Of a stretch of DNA of 5,237 bases, positions 2-4,973 are shown in pieces. Location of the stretch: assembly GCA_000004985.1 (NCBI GenBank), contig GG739166.1; one strand, 5' to 3'. Within the stretch, counting starts at the first letter, position 1. The number at the start of each line of letters is the position of its first letter. Below the pieces are notes generated by a model that searched no databases, was not told the origin of the DNA, and saw nothing but the letters and a program-made list of their open reading frames with translations. The position numbers were made by a program, and so were the translations under genes. This DNA comes from Naegleria gruberi (taxonomy: Eukaryota).

Positions 2-1040
2 CTGAAAAGAGACAGAGAACTTGTTTTAGAGGCTATTAAGTATAATGTTGATGTTTTGAAATATTGTCCTGATGATATGATAAGTGATAGAGAAATTATT
101 ATGAAAGCAGTCCAGACTGATGGATTTGCCACTTCAATATGCATCAAAACAATTACAACATGACAGAGAAATAGTACTTCTTGCCGTTAAGAATAATGGA
201 AAGAGTCTAAAATATAATTACATTAATAAACATGACAAAGAAATAGCAATGGAAGCTGTTAAGCAAAATGGCCTTGCACTTCAACATGTATGTCATTATT
301 TAAGAGACAAAGAAATTGTATTGGCAGCTATTAAACAAAACATGAGTGCTTTTGAATTTGCATCTATTGAGATAAAAAATGATAGAGAACTTGTAATGGA
401 ACTAGTTAAGAAATGTGGATGGATGTTTGAATATGCCTCAAAACAACTAAGAGGTGACAGAGAAATTGTAACAGAAGCTATTAACCGACATGCTGACATT
501 GTTTATAAACATGTATCAAAGGAATTAAGAAATGACAGACAGTTGGCAATGATAGCAATTAAAAACCATGCATGTTTACTTGCATACGCATCAGAGGAAA
601 TTAGAAATGACAAGGAAATTGTAATGGAAGCTATTAAGGGTAAAAGAGAAACGCTCAAAATGGCATCTAATTAATTGAGAAGTGACAAGTCATTTATTTT
701 AGAACTAGTTCAACAAAATTCAGAAATGCTAAAATATGCCTCTGATGAATTGAGAAACGACAAGGAATTTATATTGGACGTGGTTAAAAAAAGAGTATCT
801 ACTATCAAATATGCCTCTTATGATTTGAAAAATGACAGAGAGTTTATTCTAAATGCTGTGAAACTAAATGCAAAGGTTTTAAAATATGCCTCTGATGATA
901 TACTAAGCAAGAGTTTTACAAATGATAGAGAAATTGTATTGGCGGCAATGAAGCAAGATATCAACACCTATGCATATGCCTCTAATGAGGTAAAAAATGA
1001 TAGAGCAGTTTTATTAGAAATATTGTTTAAGATAGAAACT
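2..1040 (+). repeat. intragenic coding tandem repeats (~75-nt units, about 14 copies) of the DUF4116-like motif
   Basis: The peptide motif YAS..(L/I)(R/K)NDREIV..A(V/I)K.NG recurs every ~25 codons. At the nucleotide level there are shared blocks: aaaatatgcctctgatga at 731-748 and again at 881-898, and aaatatgcctct at 807-818. Each pair is offset by multiples of 75 nt. Confidence 0.7.
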
Positions 1041-1052
1041 TGTTTTATTTAG
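2..1052 (+). pseudogene. DUF4116-like tandem-repeat protein gene, 5'-partial, disrupted by a +1 frameshift and an in-frame stop
   Basis: Translating from nt 2 (frame 2) gives LKRDRELVLEAIKYNVDVLKYCPDDMISDREIIMKAVQTDGFA, then runs into TSICIKTITT and a stop at 161-163. Frame 3 from 120 gives (M)DLPLQYASKQLQHDREIVLLAVKNNG..., which continues the same ~25-aa repeat (units 72-78 nt; consensus LKYAS-ELRNDREIVLEAVKQNG-A, about 14 units in all). Removing one C from GCC at 128-130 joins ...DGFA to LQYASKQL... in a single repeat register. A TAA at 672-674 sits exactly where the other units have E/Q/D (ASN*LRSDK versus ASDELRNDK, ASKQLRGDR, ASEEIRNDK), so it looks like a single GAA/CAA to TAA substitution. 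The repeat continues in frame to 1052. The first residue of track ORF 675..1052 is a TTG codon, an artefact of alternative-start calling. Confidence 0.55.
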
Positions 1053-1133: not shown

Positions 1134-1382
1134 TCAGCACTGACAACAAAGAACACAAATCCAACTCATATTTTCTGTAACAATTTCTGAATTCATCCAT
1201 TTAGAAAGTGACAAGTTTACACCTGTTGGCAATTCATGCATTACCTTTTGAATTTGATTCACGTGATTACCATCCATTCCCTTTTCGAATGGTTTACCAG
1301 CAGTATCAAAGATATGATATTCATGACCATTAGAGGAACCAAGATGAACATGTTCATTGTGTTGTTTTGGGTGTAAAACATG
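1134..1382 (-). CDS. orphan His-rich ORF fragment (82 codons, no start codon; first in-frame ATG at 1277..1275 would give 47 aa); possible gene remnant
   Basis: Minus-strand frame open from 1382 to the TGA at 1136..1134: HVLHPKQHNEHVHLGSSNGHEYHIFDTAGKPFEKGMDGNHVNQIQKVMHELPTGVNLSLSKWMNSEIVTENMSWICVLCCQC*. It is preceded by an in-frame stop at 1385..1383, and its upstream side runs directly into the tandem duplication and the F-box gene start. The composition is protein-like rather than low-complexity. Confidence 0.2.
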   Translation of the reverse strand, partial: HVLHPKQHNEHVHLGSSNGHEYHIFDTAGKPFEKGMDGNHVNQIQKVMHELPTGVNLSLSKWMNSEIVTENMSWICVLCCQC

Positions 1383-1458
1383 TTAATTTAAAAGTCAAGG
1401 AGCAATTTCATAATTTGTTAATTTAAATTGTAAAAGTCAAGGATCAATTTCATAATTT
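1382..1458. repeat. tandem direct duplication (35-nt unit, then a 42-nt copy with a 6-nt insertion and 1 mismatch) immediately upstream of the F-box gene ATG
   Basis: Copy 1 is gttaatttaaaagtcaaggagcaatttcataattt (1382-1416). Copy 2 is gttaatttaaattgtaaaagtcaaggatcaatttcataattt (1417-1458). AAAAAA and the ATG at 1465 follow. Confidence 0.8.
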
Positions 1459-3273: not shown

Positions 3274-3927
3274 TTAGTTAATTTTTACAGCTTTAATTGG
3301 GGTTTCGAATTGGAATGGATCAAATATTTCAGAGCTGGTATCAATCAACATACTTTCTCTTTCAAGTTGAATCAAAATTCCCTCAACAATACTTCCAGCA
3401 AGATAATCCAACTTTCTAATAGTTGACTGTTGATGATTCTGATAATTTACAAGTGGATAACAGCAGGCTTGACCGCTAATAACTTGTTGAATCCTTTCTG
3501 AACATCTCTTAAAAGCAGAACTGTTTAAAAGAAAGTTCTGAGCTGTTTCTGGATCGACTGAATCATTAAATTGTTGAATTTTAGTATCATCAGCAATCGT
3601 ATCCAATTTGGTAATGGCAAAGGCAACAACTCTTCCCATTTCTCTGGCACTTTCGTGCAAAACTTTGAGTTTTTCCAAGAAACCAGGAGTGAAACAATCT
3701 TCAAATGTCAACATCAACAATACAGCATTGCTTGCTCTCGAAAGATCACTTTCACTAACACTTGGATCATTCTTGGATTGACCAAATTTAAGCATGCCCT
3801 CCAATAAACATTTAAAGCGATCAACTTGCAAATTATCTGAATTGAAATCCCAACCAAAAATATCATTGATTGAGATCTTCTCAGTAAGTGGATAATTATT
3901 AACACTCATGGTAGTATGATCTTGCAT
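3274..3927 (-). CDS. dynamin-superfamily-like protein with a degenerate P-loop (217 aa from the ATG at 3927; alternative ATG at 3909). The ORF is open further upstream to 4119 through N/T/I-rich low-complexity sequence.
   Basis: Collinear matches to the dynamin GTPase domain. Near the N-terminus, EKISINDIFGWDF aligns with the region just after the P-loop, GKSSVLENFVGRDF. Further on, GRVVAFAITKLD matches the G4 region QRTIGVITKLD (TKxD). Then CYPLVNYQNHQ matches GYIGVVNRSQ. The canonical GxxxxGK(S/T) is replaced by YPLTEKIS (both Gly lost, Lys kept), and the switch I/II (G2/G3) region appears deleted. The segment 3928..4119 encodes MKLNRVSIIVNITFEPNILITFTNNTIITITSRSRN..., which looks like AT-rich non-coding sequence, and it contains the AACGTG motif cluster. 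Confidence 0.5.
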   Translation of the reverse strand: MQDHTTMSVNNYPLTEKISINDIFGWDFNSDNLQVDRFKCLLEGMLKFGQSKNDPSVSESDLSRASNAVLLMLTFEDCFTPGFLEKLKVLHESAREMGRVVAFAITKLDTIADDTKIQQFNDSVDPETAQNFLLNSSAFKRCSERIQQVISGQACCYPLVNYQNHQQSTIRKLDYLAGSIVEGILIQLERESMLIDTSSEIFDPFQFETPIKAVKIN

Positions 3928-4019
3928 TTGGATTGTAGTAAGTTCTTGGAATTTGAAACATTTTTTTGTTGTTGAGTTTTGTTTTCTTTCGGTGTGTTTG
4001 TGTATTAAAAGATTTCTGG

Positions 4020-4084
4020 AACGTGAAGTTATTGTAATAATTGTATTATTAGTAAACGTGATAAGTATATTTGGTTCAAACGTG
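4020..4084 (+). promoter_or_regulatory. three direct copies of AACGTG(A) (4020-4025, 4055-4060, 4079-4084), the last two as identical 10-mers aaacgtgata spaced 24 nt apart. Candidate cis-regulatory sites in the divergent promoter region.
   Basis: Direct sequence repeats. The second and third copies are each followed by an A/T-rich (taa/caa)taattg-like block. Confidence 0.3.
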
Positions 4085-4274
4085 ATATTTACAATAATTG
4101 AAACTCGGTTGAGTTTCAACAGATTTTCATCTCGGATTCATTTTCAAAAAATCGTAAGAGATAAGGGGAATCAAGTAATTGAAGAAGATGGGTCTTTCTA
4201 ACGTATGTGCCTGTACATTTAAATGAAAGAGAAAATTATAACAAGTTAATAGAAAACAATGAATTTTTTTTAGA

Positions 4275-4344
4275 AAGCACGTTTCTTTTACTTTACTCAA
4301 GCACCTTTCTAATGGTTTAGAATGGAGGTTGTGTTTATCACGTT
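4275..4344 (+). promoter_or_regulatory. two copies of CACGTT (4278-4283, 4339-4344), the reverse complement of AACGTG, and a 12-mer repeat aagcac(g/c)tttct (4275-4286, 4309-4320) upstream of the ATG at 4423
   Basis: Same ACGT-core hexamer as at 4020-4084 but in inverted orientation. They lie 80-145 nt upstream of the start of gene 4423. Confidence 0.3.
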
Positions 4345-4422
4345 TTGGTTAACTAATAGTAAAAAAACAAACACCATCCTAAAGAAACTAAACTCAACAA
4401 CCGAAACATTAACCAAATAAGA

Positions 4423-4774
4423 ATGTCTTCCCCAACCCACTATGCTTGCCTTGAATCCAACAACTCAAAATTCAGATTTGCCTATCATGAATCTTTCTCA
4501 TCCCAACAATCTGGGAAAGTATTCTTGATTGACTTTGAAAATTCTGTCAAGTATATGAATGGCAATTGTCCTCTTGAAGTCATCAATACAAAGGTTTTTA
4601 CTCAATTGGTAAGTGGACTTGTTTCAGTCAAGATTTCAGACGAAACTCAAGGAGTCATTGAACTCACCATTGGAACCAAGTGTTTGAAATTGGAAAAGAC
4701 TGAAATTACAAGTCAAGATTTCCTTCAAGAACAGGTTTACTTATTGGAGAAGAAGTTTGAAAGAATGCTCAAAG
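4423..4774 (+). CDS. exon 1 of a two-exon gene encoding a hypothetical protein with a coiled-coil-like C-terminus (167 aa after splicing)
   Basis: ORF from the ATG at 4423. A canonical splice donor GTAAGT sits at 4775-4780 immediately after ...ERMLKG. The unspliced frame stops at 4783-4785 inside the putative intron. The start context is aaataagaATG. Confidence 0.55.
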
Positions 4775-4824
4775 GTAAGTTGTAGCCATTTCGAATACTT
4801 TGATTGAAAACAACTTTTTAAAAG
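4775..4824 (+). other. putative 50-nt spliceosomal intron (GTAAGT ... TTTTTAAAAG), phase 1
   Basis: Donor gtaagt at 4775-4780. Acceptor AG at 4823-4824 preceded by a T/A-rich tract. Splicing G(4774) to AA(4825-4826) creates a GAA codon and continues in frame for 48 more codons to the TAA at 4971-4973. Confidence 0.5.
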
Positions 4825-4973
4825 AAAATGATAACAAGATTAAAAGTTTGAATGATGAAGTTAATAGCTTAAGAGCAATGAATGAAGAATTGGTTCTAGC
4901 TGTGAGAACCAAGAACGAAGAACCTGTTCAACCAGTTGCTGAAGAAGTTCCACCAGTTGTTGCTGCAGAATAA
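4825..4973 (+). CDS. exon 2 of the spliced gene (…ENDNKIKSLNDEVNSLRAMNEELVLAVRTKNEEPVQPVAEEVPPVVAAE*)
   Basis: The frame +2 relative to exon 1 is open from 4779 to 4973. Its heptad-like charged composition continues the coiled-coil character of the exon-1 C-terminus (QDFLQEQVYLLEKKFERMLKG). The E/V/P-rich tail is not AT-rich junk. AATAAA lies 20 nt downstream at 4993-4998. Confidence 0.5.

What the first reader, a model, noticed from the sequence alone, without database searches (positions are those of the whole stretch)
4020..4344. Five copies of an ACGT-core hexamer (AACGTG x3, CACGTT x2) clustered in one divergent intergenic region
The region sits between the minus-strand gene (start 3927) and the plus-strand gene (start 4423). 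AACGTG occurs at 4020, 4055 and 4079 (copies 2 and 3 as identical aaacgtgata 10-mers, 24 nt apart). Its reverse complement CACGTT occurs at 4278 and 4339, inside and beside a 12-mer repeat aagcacNtttct. A specific hexamer plus its complement is expected about 0.25 times in 500 nt, so five copies is a clear enrichment. The two orientation blocks each face one of the two divergent genes. A related cACGTGATta lies at 1260-1268, about 200 nt upstream of the F-box gene. This is a candidate shared transcription-factor site (E-box/G-box-like, bHLH/bZIP-type) that co-regulates the locus.
Basis: seen in the sequence. Interest (0 to 1): 0.5.

Follow-up and report, generated by a model that had tools for sequence, protein, structure and literature searches.

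The report
Mirrored ACGT-motif cluster in Naegleria promoter
A 460-base spacer between two back-to-back genes of the amoeba Naegleria gruberi carries three copies of the short motif ATCACGTTT facing each gene in mirror image; these are most likely docking sites for one regulatory protein, which makes this a real but fairly ordinary candidate promoter element.

Summary
AACGTG/CACGTT occurs five times in the window, all within 4020-4344. No hexamer in 300 dinucleotide-preserving shuffles clusters as strongly.

The window is a complete 5,237-bp scaffold of Naegleria gruberi NEG-M. The sites are really 3+3 copies of ATCACGTTT, read in the sense direction of the nearer gene. They are placed mirror-symmetrically about position ~4182, inside an imperfect ~480-bp palindrome that fills the divergent intergenic region. 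The sixth copy is decayed in the window (CACCTT, 4302-4307) but intact in a related contig.

All five sites are kept in a second copy of the locus. Two of the three left-arm sites are kept in a more diverged paralogue. The motif-bearing arms change more slowly than the centre of the spacer or than synonymous sites.

Best reading (confidence about 0.5): a homotypic cluster of binding sites for an ACGT-core factor (bZIP- or bHLH-like) in a bidirectional promoter that arose by inverted duplication. The binding factor was not tested. The link to the F-box gene is not supported.

The minus-strand gene in the window is a derivative of a small GTPase gene that has lost 172 nt including its P-loop. 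In intact copies the start codon corresponds to window position 3961, not 3927.

The parts
4019..4027 (-). Site 1, left arm, proximal. GAACGTGAA on the + strand, which reads TTCACGTTC in the sense of the minus gene. It lies 59-64 nt upstream of the ATG at 3961.
   Evidence: Conserved in L124. It reads ATCACGTTT in paralogue L126.
4054..4062 (-). Site 2, left arm, middle. AAACGTGAT on the + strand, which reads ATCACGTTT in gene sense.
   Evidence: (I6: 11-mer identical to site 5). Conserved in L124. Lost in L126.
4078..4086 (-). Site 3, left arm, distal. AAACGTGAT on the + strand, which reads ATCACGTTT in gene sense.
   Evidence: Conserved in L124 and in L126, together with the flank ATCACGTTTGAAC.
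4276..4284 (+). Site 4, right arm, distal. AGCACGTTT. Mirror partner of site 3 (coordinate sum 8362).
   Evidence: Conserved in L123 and L124.
4300..4308 (+). Sixth site, right arm, middle. Decayed in the window to AGCACCTTT. Mirror partner of site 2 (coordinate sum 8362).
   Evidence: Intact AGCACGTTT in L123 and AGCACGATT in L124.
4337..4345 (+). Site 5, right arm, proximal. ATCACGTTT, 79-84 nt upstream of the ATG at 4423. Mirror partner of site 1 (coordinate sum 8364).
   Evidence: Conserved in L123 and L124.
3944..4006 (-). Outer left arm of the palindrome: the leader and core-promoter region of the minus gene. It contains GTTGTTGAGTTT (3968-3979), which reads AAACTCAACAAC in gene sense.
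   Evidence: (I1, I5, I7). Only 2 substitutions in 61 nt against L124.
4362..4422 (+). Outer right arm of the palindrome: the leader of the plus gene. It contains AAACTCAACAAC (4390-4401).
   Evidence: 0 of 78 substitutions against L124 and 1 of 78 against L123 over 4345-4422.
4098..4119 (.). Perfect 9-bp hairpin, TTGAAACTC-GGTT-GAGTTTCAA, just inside the left motif block. Role unknown.
   Evidence: I8. One change, G4111T, in L124.
4147..4226 (.). Central ~80-nt segment present in the window but absent from L124. This is the poorly constrained centre of the spacer.
3277..3961 (-). Minus-strand gene, annotated as 217 aa from the ATG at 3927. It is a 172-nt frame-shifting deletion derivative of an MMR_HSR1-like small GTPase gene. 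The junction lies in the AGATCA microhomology at 3917-3922. The family start codon is at 3961-3959.
4423..4973 (+). Plus-strand gene: exon 1 at 4423-4774, a 50-nt GTAAGT...AAG intron at 4775-4824, and exon 2 at 4825-4973. The product is a 166-aa protein specific to Naegleria.
   Evidence: The spliced translation is identical to P0125.

Best explanation
The region is a bidirectional promoter between two divergently transcribed genes that were found only in Naegleria.

Each gene is preceded, in its own sense direction, by the same module. The module has three copies of a 9-nt element, consensus ATCACGTTT with core CACGTT, spread over ~65 nt. An A/C-rich leader containing AAACTCAACAAC follows, and then the ATG.

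The two modules are inverted copies of each other, forming an imperfect ~480-bp palindrome centred near 4182. The architecture most likely arose by inverted duplication of one promoter arm.

The repeated elements are most likely low- to medium-affinity binding sites for one sequence-specific factor that recognises an ACGT core. A bZIP dimer or a bHLH-type protein are the obvious candidates. Such a homotypic cluster would drive or co-regulate both genes.

**Shown:** the sites, their significance, the mirror layout, their retention in related copies, and the slower evolution of the arms.

**Inferred:** protein binding, the class of factor, transcription from both arms, and co-regulation.
For: - **Non-random cluster.** 5 of 5 copies lie in 325 nt, and 0 of 300 shuffles had any hexamer as extreme.
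- **Core conserved, flanks random.** Aligned on the hexamer, positions -2 to +6 give ATCACGTTT (4-5 of 5 sites agree). Flanking positions sit at background. Sites 2 and 3 share 10 of 10 bases, but their next 14 bases match only 5 of 14.
- **Mirror layout.** Site pairs give coordinate sums of 8362, 8362 and 8364. The strongest inverted 7-mer anti-diagonal in the whole window is centred at 4182. The arm-versus-arm alignment scores 54, against 35 +/- 5.5 for block shuffles that preserve local composition (1-5 of 500 reach it). The DNA fold has z = -3.96.
- **Retention in related DNA.** L124 covers the whole spacer and keeps all five sites. L123 keeps sites 4 and 5 and has the sixth intact. Paralogue fragment L126 is 83% identical in coding sequence and 73% upstream, and keeps the proximal and distal left-arm sites as ATCACGTTT together with the leader motif.
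- **Constraint on the arms.** The arms show 6 substitutions in 259 nt. The centre shows 9 in 106 (p = 0.016). Synonymous sites of the adjacent gene show 14 in 127 (p = 0.0008).
- **CpG retention.** The CpG-containing cores persist in DNA with CpG observed/expected of 0.47.
- **Low background.** No copies occur elsewhere in the window. None occur outside the spacer in L123 or L124. N. lovaniensis DNA has 0.29 per kb, against ~10 per kb here.
- **Known site type.** AACGTG/CACGTT is an established bHLH target elsewhere (PMC2441813, PMC6021540, PMC1131890).
Against: - No binding, expression or transcription-start data exist for this locus.
- The comparison sequences are too close to single out the hexamers. 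They show 0 substitutions in 30 nt, against 15 in 395 for the rest of the spacer (p = 0.61).
- One of the six sites is decaying in two of three copies, and the middle left site is lost in L126. Not every copy is therefore constrained.
- The lower divergence of the arms could partly reflect a mosaic history or gene conversion. The plus gene shows synonymous divergence (pS) of only 0.028 against L123, while the minus gene shows 0.11 against L124.
- The motif shows no upstream bias in 21 kb of N. lovaniensis, where 4 of 6 hits fall inside genes.
- The window's minus gene is a deletion derivative that may be a pseudogene.
- The presence of bHLH or bZIP proteins in Naegleria was not checked here.
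Confidence: 0.5

Rival explanations
1. The sites are a neutral relic of duplication. One arm with one or two CACGTT-containing units was multiplied by local slippage and then by an inverted duplication. The copies are simply decaying and have no sequence-specific function.
For: - The arms are homologous inverted copies.
- Within each arm the two inner copies are 24 nt apart and share arm-specific flanks: AAACGTGATA on the left and AGAAASGTGCTT on the right.
- The indels between copies sit at short direct repeats typical of slippage.
- The sixth site is mutated in two of three copies, and site 2 is lost in L126.
- The hexamers are not measurably more conserved than the rest of the spacer.
Against: - Between the arms, and between repeats within an arm, everything except the 9-10-nt core has diverged to background. 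Once the motifs are masked, the arm-versus-arm alignment shrinks to the outer 63 nt, and flank information sits at background. Neutral decay would not spare a CpG-containing core in CpG-depleted DNA.
- The arms evolve about 4-fold more slowly than synonymous sites.
Confidence: 0.3
2. The palindrome is a foldback or MITE-type transposable element that inserted between the two genes. The motif copies would then be part of its subterminal repeats, for example transposase-binding sites.
For: - The structure is an AT-rich ~480-bp imperfect palindrome.
- The outer arms are 76% complementary over 34 nt (I1).
- The single-strand fold has z = -3.96.
- Subterminal short repeats in mirrored orientation are typical of such elements (my own knowledge).
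Against: - No target-site duplication is visible at 3943/4423.
- The arms run right up to the two start codons and look like leaders.
- The left arm alone, with its sites and leader motif, precedes the paralogous gene fragment L126, so it travels with the gene rather than as an element.
- No other copy was found in the window, in L001, or in 120 metagenome loci carrying the motif pair.
- Transposable elements are reported to make up only ~0.28% of the N. gruberi genome (bioRxiv 10.64898/2026.06.24.734286).
Confidence: 0.07
3. The region is not a promoter. It would instead be an unannotated exon or intron of the minus-strand gene, as the 266-aa reference model P0001 might suggest, or a small RNA gene.
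For: The reference model P0001 has 51 N-terminal residues that are absent from the window. This at first suggested an upstream exon and a long intron.
Against: - L124 shows that the P-loop segment is contiguous with the ORF. It was lost from the window by a 172-nt deletion, so no intron is needed.
- Indels of 8, 9, 10 and ~80 nt between copies rule out coding sequence in the spacer.
- There are no Rfam or tRNA hits.
Confidence: 0.03
4. The cluster is a chance occurrence in AT-rich DNA.
For: One of 200 whole-window shuffles reached five copies, counting copies only and ignoring clustering.
Against: With clustering and all hexamers taken into account, 0 of 300 shuffles match. The same sites recur in related copies of the locus.
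Confidence: 0.01

Closest known systems
Pho4 (bHLH) sites CACGTG/CACGTT in yeast PHO promoters
   Same: The hexamer CACGTT is the same. Several copies of mixed quality are clustered within a few hundred bases upstream of the regulated genes (PMC1131890).
   Different: The organism and the gene set differ. Nothing links this locus to phosphate. Here all copies are the one-half-site variant and are laid out in mirror symmetry. Binding is unproven.
Plant T/G-box AACGTG bound by MYC2-type bHLH factors, and ACGT-core elements (G-box, ABRE) bound by bZIPs
   Same: The hexamer is identical and has an ACGT core. Such sites often occur in multiple copies in inducible promoters (PMC6021540).
   Different: The flanks here (ATCACGTTT) do not match the ABRE sequence ACGTGG/TC or the G-box CACGTG. 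Naegleria is unrelated to plants. No factor has been identified.
SIM2/ARNT non-canonical E-box AACGTG (bHLH-PAS)
   Same: The hexamer is the same. One canonical GTG half-site is paired with a divergent half-site (PMC2441813).
   Different: bHLH-PAS heterodimers are animal proteins (my own knowledge). The resemblance lies in the site only.
Bidirectional promoters with shared upstream sites, such as yeast GAL1-GAL10 and divergent histone gene pairs
   Same: One short spacer between head-to-head genes carries several copies of one site (my own knowledge).
   Different: Here the two halves are inverted duplicates, each with its own oriented triplet of sites and its own leader. The two genes are unrelated in sequence.

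Membership tests
Canonical E-box (CANNTG) / G-box (CACGTG) | The hexamer fits CANNTG, or CACGTG for the G-box. | tested here: not met
   All five sites are CACGTT/AACGTG, with one GTG half-site only. Only the unrelated site at 1260 is CACGTG.
ACGT-core element, T/G-box type (AACGTG) | An ACGT core flanked by A on one side and G on the other. | tested here: met
   The T/G-box definition is from PMC6021540.
ACGT-core element, T/G-box type (AACGTG) | Bound by a bHLH or bZIP protein of the same organism. | not testable with these tools
   No binding data exist.
Functional homotypic transcription-factor site cluster in a promoter | Located upstream of a start codon, in non-coding DNA. | tested here: met
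   The sites lie 59-145 nt upstream of the ATGs at 3961 and 4423. Indels that are not multiples of three separate the copies. No RNA family hits.
Functional homotypic transcription-factor site cluster in a promoter | The core is conserved more strongly than its flanks in related sequences. | tested here: inconclusive
   Among repeats within the locus this holds. Between copies of the locus the hexamers show 0 of 30 changes, against 15 of 395 for the rest of the spacer (p = 0.61). The arms as a whole are slower than synonymous sites (p = 0.0008).
Functional homotypic transcription-factor site cluster in a promoter | The motif is enriched upstream of other genes, genome-wide (a regulon). | not testable with these tools
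   The N. gruberi assembly is not retrievable. In 21 kb of N. lovaniensis there is no cluster, and 4 of 6 hits fall inside genes.
MITE / foldback transposon | Terminal inverted repeats. | tested here: met
   Imperfect arms, 34 nt at 76% complementarity (I1).
MITE / foldback transposon | Target-site duplication, and multiple dispersed copies in unrelated contexts. | tested here: not met
   No duplication is visible at the arm ends. Every copy found is attached to the same genes. The whole genome could not be searched.

The most novel reading that the evidence does not exclude
The mirror symmetry itself may be under selection, rather than only the individual sites. Between two copies of the locus, an 8-nt indel in the left arm and a 10-nt indel in the right arm fall at mirrored positions. 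They change the site spacing from 35/24 versus 37/24 in the window to exactly 27/24 versus 27/24 in L124, where all three pair sums equal 403. This could mean the spacer is read as one symmetric unit, for example by a multimeric factor bridging both arms or through a cruciform. That would be a promoter architecture not described for any heterolobosean.
Probability: 0.08. Interest if true: 0.6.

Novelty: new member of a known kind. Interest (0 to 1): 0.3.

Why it matters
My literature searches found no described cis-regulatory elements for Naegleria. A defined, conserved and oriented 9-mer in a compact bidirectional promoter would therefore give a concrete handle for reporter constructs and for finding its factor in an early-branching eukaryote.

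It remains a single locus flanked by two genes of unknown function, one of them a damaged copy. The kind of element, an ACGT-core site cluster, is familiar. The practical corrections may be as useful as the motif itself:
- the 5.2-kb scaffold is a variant copy of a locus on the 304-kb scaffold;
- the 217-aa "predicted protein" is a form of a small GTPase that has lost its P-loop by deletion.

Tried and rejected
- **Retrieving N. gruberi genomic context.** Exact-protein look-up failed for all window ORFs and for the reference proteins P0001 and P0002, so no genome-wide motif test was possible.
- **Metagenome scan for the motif pair.** None shares DNA or protein similarity with the window. This was a dead end.
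- **DUF4116 homologue search for Naegleria background DNA.** It yielded one N. lovaniensis locus (L001, used as a small background), one bacterial contig (L002) and one contig that looks like a giant virus (L125). The last two were unusable.
- **Long-intron reading of the P0001 model.** I first considered that the P-loop exon lay beyond the window, with the spacer as an intron. L124 rejected this by showing a contiguous ORF and a 172-nt deletion in the window.
- **RNA and bacterial-signal scans.** Rfam, tRNA and bacterial promoter/terminator scans found nothing relevant.
- **Homology between the two flanking proteins.** There is none, so a head-to-head duplication of whole genes is excluded.
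- **Literature.** Nothing was found on Naegleria cis-elements, on the Naegleria transcription-factor complement, on the locus tags or on project PRJEB11402. The N. gruberi genome paper is not held.
- **Family searches on the minus-gene product.** Direct Pfam, NCBIfam and PDB searches were uninformative. Only the exhaustive representative search placed it among MMR_HSR1-like GTPases.

Full report
**1. Is the observation true?**

Yes. A search for AACGTG on both strands finds exactly five copies in the 5,237-base window: 4020, 4055 and 4079 on the + strand, and 4278 and 4339 on the - strand. Copies 2 and 3 are identical AAACGTGATA 10-mers 24 nt apart. Site 5 carries the same sequence on the other strand: an 11-nt perfect inverted repeat joins 4054-4064 and 4335-4345 (I6). 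The 12-mers AAGCACGTTTCT and AAGCACCTTTCT lie at 4275-4286 and 4299-4310.

The dinucleotide model expects 0.91 copies in the window and 0.06 in any 325-nt stretch. I scored every strand-symmetric hexamer for its densest 325-nt cluster. AACGTG is the most extreme in the window (Poisson p = 6e-9), and none of 300 dinucleotide-preserving shuffles produced any hexamer as extreme. CpG is depleted in the window (observed/expected 0.47), and six of the nine ACGT tetramers lie within 4021-4340. Chance is excluded. Shuffles cannot exclude duplication, which matters below.

**2. Where are we?**

The minus-strand ORF matches a Naegleria gruberi protein. A cluster look-up shows that the annotated 217-aa protein (XP_002668278, NAEGRDRAFT_76815) sits on a contig of exactly 5,237 bp. 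The window is therefore a complete small scaffold of the NEG-M assembly.

The plus-strand gene has a 50-nt GTAAGT...AAG intron at 4775-4824. Its spliced 166-aa product is identical to XP_002668277. It is also identical to a second entry on a 304-kb scaffold, which UniProt lists next to P0001. The locus therefore exists in at least two copies in the assembly, and there is a third, 91%-identical paralogue of the plus gene (P0002). Word-indexed searches found homologues of neither gene outside Naegleria.

**3. The left gene boundary**

The reference protein P0001 has 51 extra N-terminal residues, including a P-loop (APSNVGKSS), that occur nowhere in the window.

An ENA contig (L124) carries a continuous 287-aa ORF. 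It reads MFQIPRTYYNPNARS, then ETEDRF-MRLGHL...P-loop...SGGA, then DHTTMSVNN.... Aligning it with the window shows that the window lacks 172 nt between two AGATCA microhomologies, with the junction at 3917-3922. This deletion removes the P-loop and shifts the frame. The annotated ATG at 3927 is an accidental in-frame start. The family's start codon corresponds to window 3961-3959.

An exhaustive profile-free search links the intact protein to ~265-280-aa proteins, several of which score above threshold for MMR_HSR1, the 50S ribosome-binding GTPase family.

The coding part is still under purifying selection between the window and L124 (pN 0.004, pS 0.11). The spacer between start codons is 3962-4422, or 461 nt. 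No long intron is needed, and the region remains a divergent intergenic spacer.

**4. Anatomy of the spacer**

Inverted-repeat detection shows nested arm pairs with nearly constant coordinate sums: 3951-3984 with 4385-4418, 3994-4006 with 4362-4374, and others. The anti-diagonal centred at 4182 carries more inverted 7-mer matches than any other in the window.

A local alignment of the left half against the reverse complement of the right half scores 54. Block shuffles that preserve local composition give 33-36 +/- 5.5, and 1-5 of 500 reach the observed score. With the motifs masked, the alignment shrinks to the outer ~63 nt (p ~0.03). The single-strand DNA fold pairs the two ends (z = -3.96).

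The alignment pairs site 1 with site 5, site 3 with site 4, and site 2 with CACCTT at 4302-4307. The coordinate sums are 8364, 8362 and 8362. Spacings are 35/24 on the left and 37/24 on the right.

Read in the sense of the nearer gene, every copy is (A/T)(T/G)CACGTT(T), consensus ATCACGTTT. Information content falls to background outside positions -2 to +6. Each arm ends in an A/C-rich leader containing AAACTCAACAAC, at 3968-3979 (reverse complement) and 4390-4401.

The two encoded proteins are unrelated. Only the promoter was duplicated, not the genes.

**5. Related sequences**

Three ENA contigs from one sample (ERZ929261) carry relatives of the locus.

- **L124** spans the whole spacer, with ~3.5% substitutions and several indels. 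It keeps all five sites. The sixth reads CACGAT.
- **L123** covers the right arm. It keeps sites 4 and 5 and has the sixth as an intact CACGTT. The ancestral state was therefore 3+3.
- **L126** is a degraded paralogue, 83% identical in coding sequence and 73% upstream. It keeps the leader motif and the proximal and distal left-arm sites, both as ATCACGTTT, but has lost the middle one.

Substitutions between the window and L124 are unevenly spread:

| Region | Substitutions | Comparison with the arms |
|---|---|---|
| Arms (leader plus motif blocks) | 6 / 259 | |
| Centre of the spacer | 9 / 106 | p = 0.016 |
| Synonymous sites, minus gene | 14 / 127 | p = 0.0008 |

The centre also carries an ~80-nt indel. 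The five hexamers show 0 of 30 changes. At this low divergence that cannot be distinguished from the rest of the spacer (p = 0.61).

One curiosity stands out. L124 differs from the window by an 8-nt indel between sites 1 and 2, and by a 10-nt indel at the mirrored position on the right. This gives exactly 27/24 on both arms, with all three pair sums equal to 403. I estimate that coincidence is not unlikely (roughly 0.1), so I record it only as a lead.

**6. Background**

No other AACGTG/CACGTT occurs in the window. Neither L123 nor L124 has a copy outside the spacer.

In the only other Naegleria DNA I could fetch, 21 kb of N. lovaniensis, there are six copies (0.29 per kb, against ~10 per kb here). 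Four fall in genes and two lie 44 nt apart in one divergent spacer. The motif is therefore not a general feature of Naegleria DNA or of all promoters. The proper genome-wide test could not be run.

**7. Interpretation**

The core is conserved while the flanks are randomised, both between repeats within an arm and between the arms. A CpG core is retained in CpG-poor DNA. Each gene sees the same orientation. The motif-bearing arms evolve slowly. Together these favour functional protein-binding elements in a bidirectional promoter that began as an inverted duplication (confidence ~0.5).

The site type is known. CACGTT is the weaker Pho4 site in yeast PHO promoters (PMC1131890). AACGTG is the plant T/G-box bound by MYC2 (PMC6021540). 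AACGTG is also a non-canonical E-box for SIM2/ARNT (PMC2441813). It is not a canonical E-box or G-box. Which Naegleria protein might bind it is untested.

The main rival is neutral relics of slippage plus inverted duplication (~0.3). The decaying sixth site, the lost site in L126 and the lack of hexamer-specific conservation all support it.

A MITE or foldback element (~0.07) fits the palindrome. It does not fit the absence of a target-site duplication, the arms ending at the start codons, or the left arm travelling with the paralogous gene. Transposable elements are also reported to make up only ~0.28% of the N. gruberi genome.

An exon, intron or RNA gene reading is excluded.

**8. The F-box link**

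The element at 1260 is TTCACGTGATTAC, a full palindromic CACGTG. It lies in an 82-codon stop-free minus-strand frame that matches no family. Nothing ties it to the cluster. The claim that the motif co-regulates the whole locus is unsupported.

**9. Verdict**

This is a real, conserved and neatly organised candidate cis-element cluster, in an organism for which my literature searches found no described promoter elements. It is of a familiar kind, at a single locus, between two genes of unknown function, and has no functional data. Interest is modest.

Noticed in passing
window 3917-3961 (compare L124 425-596): The annotated 217-aa gene NAEGRDRAFT_76815 is a 172-nt frame-shifting deletion derivative of an MMR_HSR1-like small GTPase gene. 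The P-loop segment is lost between AGATCA microhomologies. The former start codon now heads a 20-codon upstream ORF (MFQIPRTYYNPNARSYYHEC). The remaining coding sequence still shows pN/pS of about 0.04 against L124.
   Followed up: yes
window 1389-1416 and 1431-1458: A 28-nt direct repeat, TAAAAGTCAAGGA[G/T]CAATTTCATAATTT, is 96% identical between its two copies, which lie 42 nt apart. It fills most of the ~80-nt spacer just upstream of the F-box gene ATG at 1465. This is another candidate repeated promoter element, unrelated to AACGTG.
   Followed up: partly
window 120-1052: A DUF4116 repeat ORF is interrupted by an in-frame TAA at 672-674. The best database relatives are only 31-53% identical, and no near-identical N. 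gruberi protein is annotated. It is probably a pseudogene or an unannotated gene.
   Followed up: partly
window 4098-4119: A perfect 9-bp stem with a 4-nt loop, TTGAAACTC-GGTT-GAGTTTCAA, lies immediately inside the left motif block. Its 3' arm repeats the leader word GTTGAGTTT. L124 has one change, at the loop-closing pair.
   Followed up: partly
window 4040-4050 and 4310-4320; L124 positions 84-319: Indels of 8 nt (left arm) and 10 nt (right arm) at mirrored positions separate the window from L124. They keep the three site pairs mirror-symmetric in both copies: 35/24 versus 37/24 in the window and 27/24 versus 27/24 in L124.
   Followed up: partly
window 4147-4226: An ~80-nt central segment is present in the window but absent from L124. 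It contains a further ACGT at 4201 and the palindrome CATTTAAATG. Which state is ancestral is unknown.
   Followed up: no
window 1139-1385, minus strand: An 82-codon stop-free frame (HVLHPKQHNEHVHLGSSNGHEYHIFDTAGKPFEKGMDGNHVNQIQK...) has no initiator Met and no family hit. It may be an exon of an unannotated gene. It contains the CACGTG at 1260.
   Followed up: partly
L126 1-756 (ENA ERZ929261): A third, heavily deleted paralogue of the GTPase gene also lacks the P-loop segment, and the leader is joined directly to M-S-E-K-T-T-G-L-E-V. Loss of the N-terminal segment has therefore happened more than once in this family.
   Followed up: partly
L001 15976 and 16020 (N. lovaniensis): The only two intergenic AACGTG/CACGTT copies in this 21-kb locus lie 44 nt apart, in opposite orientation, in one divergent spacer. 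Their flanks differ from ATCACGTTT.
   Followed up: no
L125 (ENA ERZ842040, 14.5 kb): The contig holding the second-best DUF4116 match is densely packed with short genes, including topoisomerase IB, a RING finger protein and three DUF4116 genes. It looks like a giant-virus contig rather than Naegleria.
   Followed up: no
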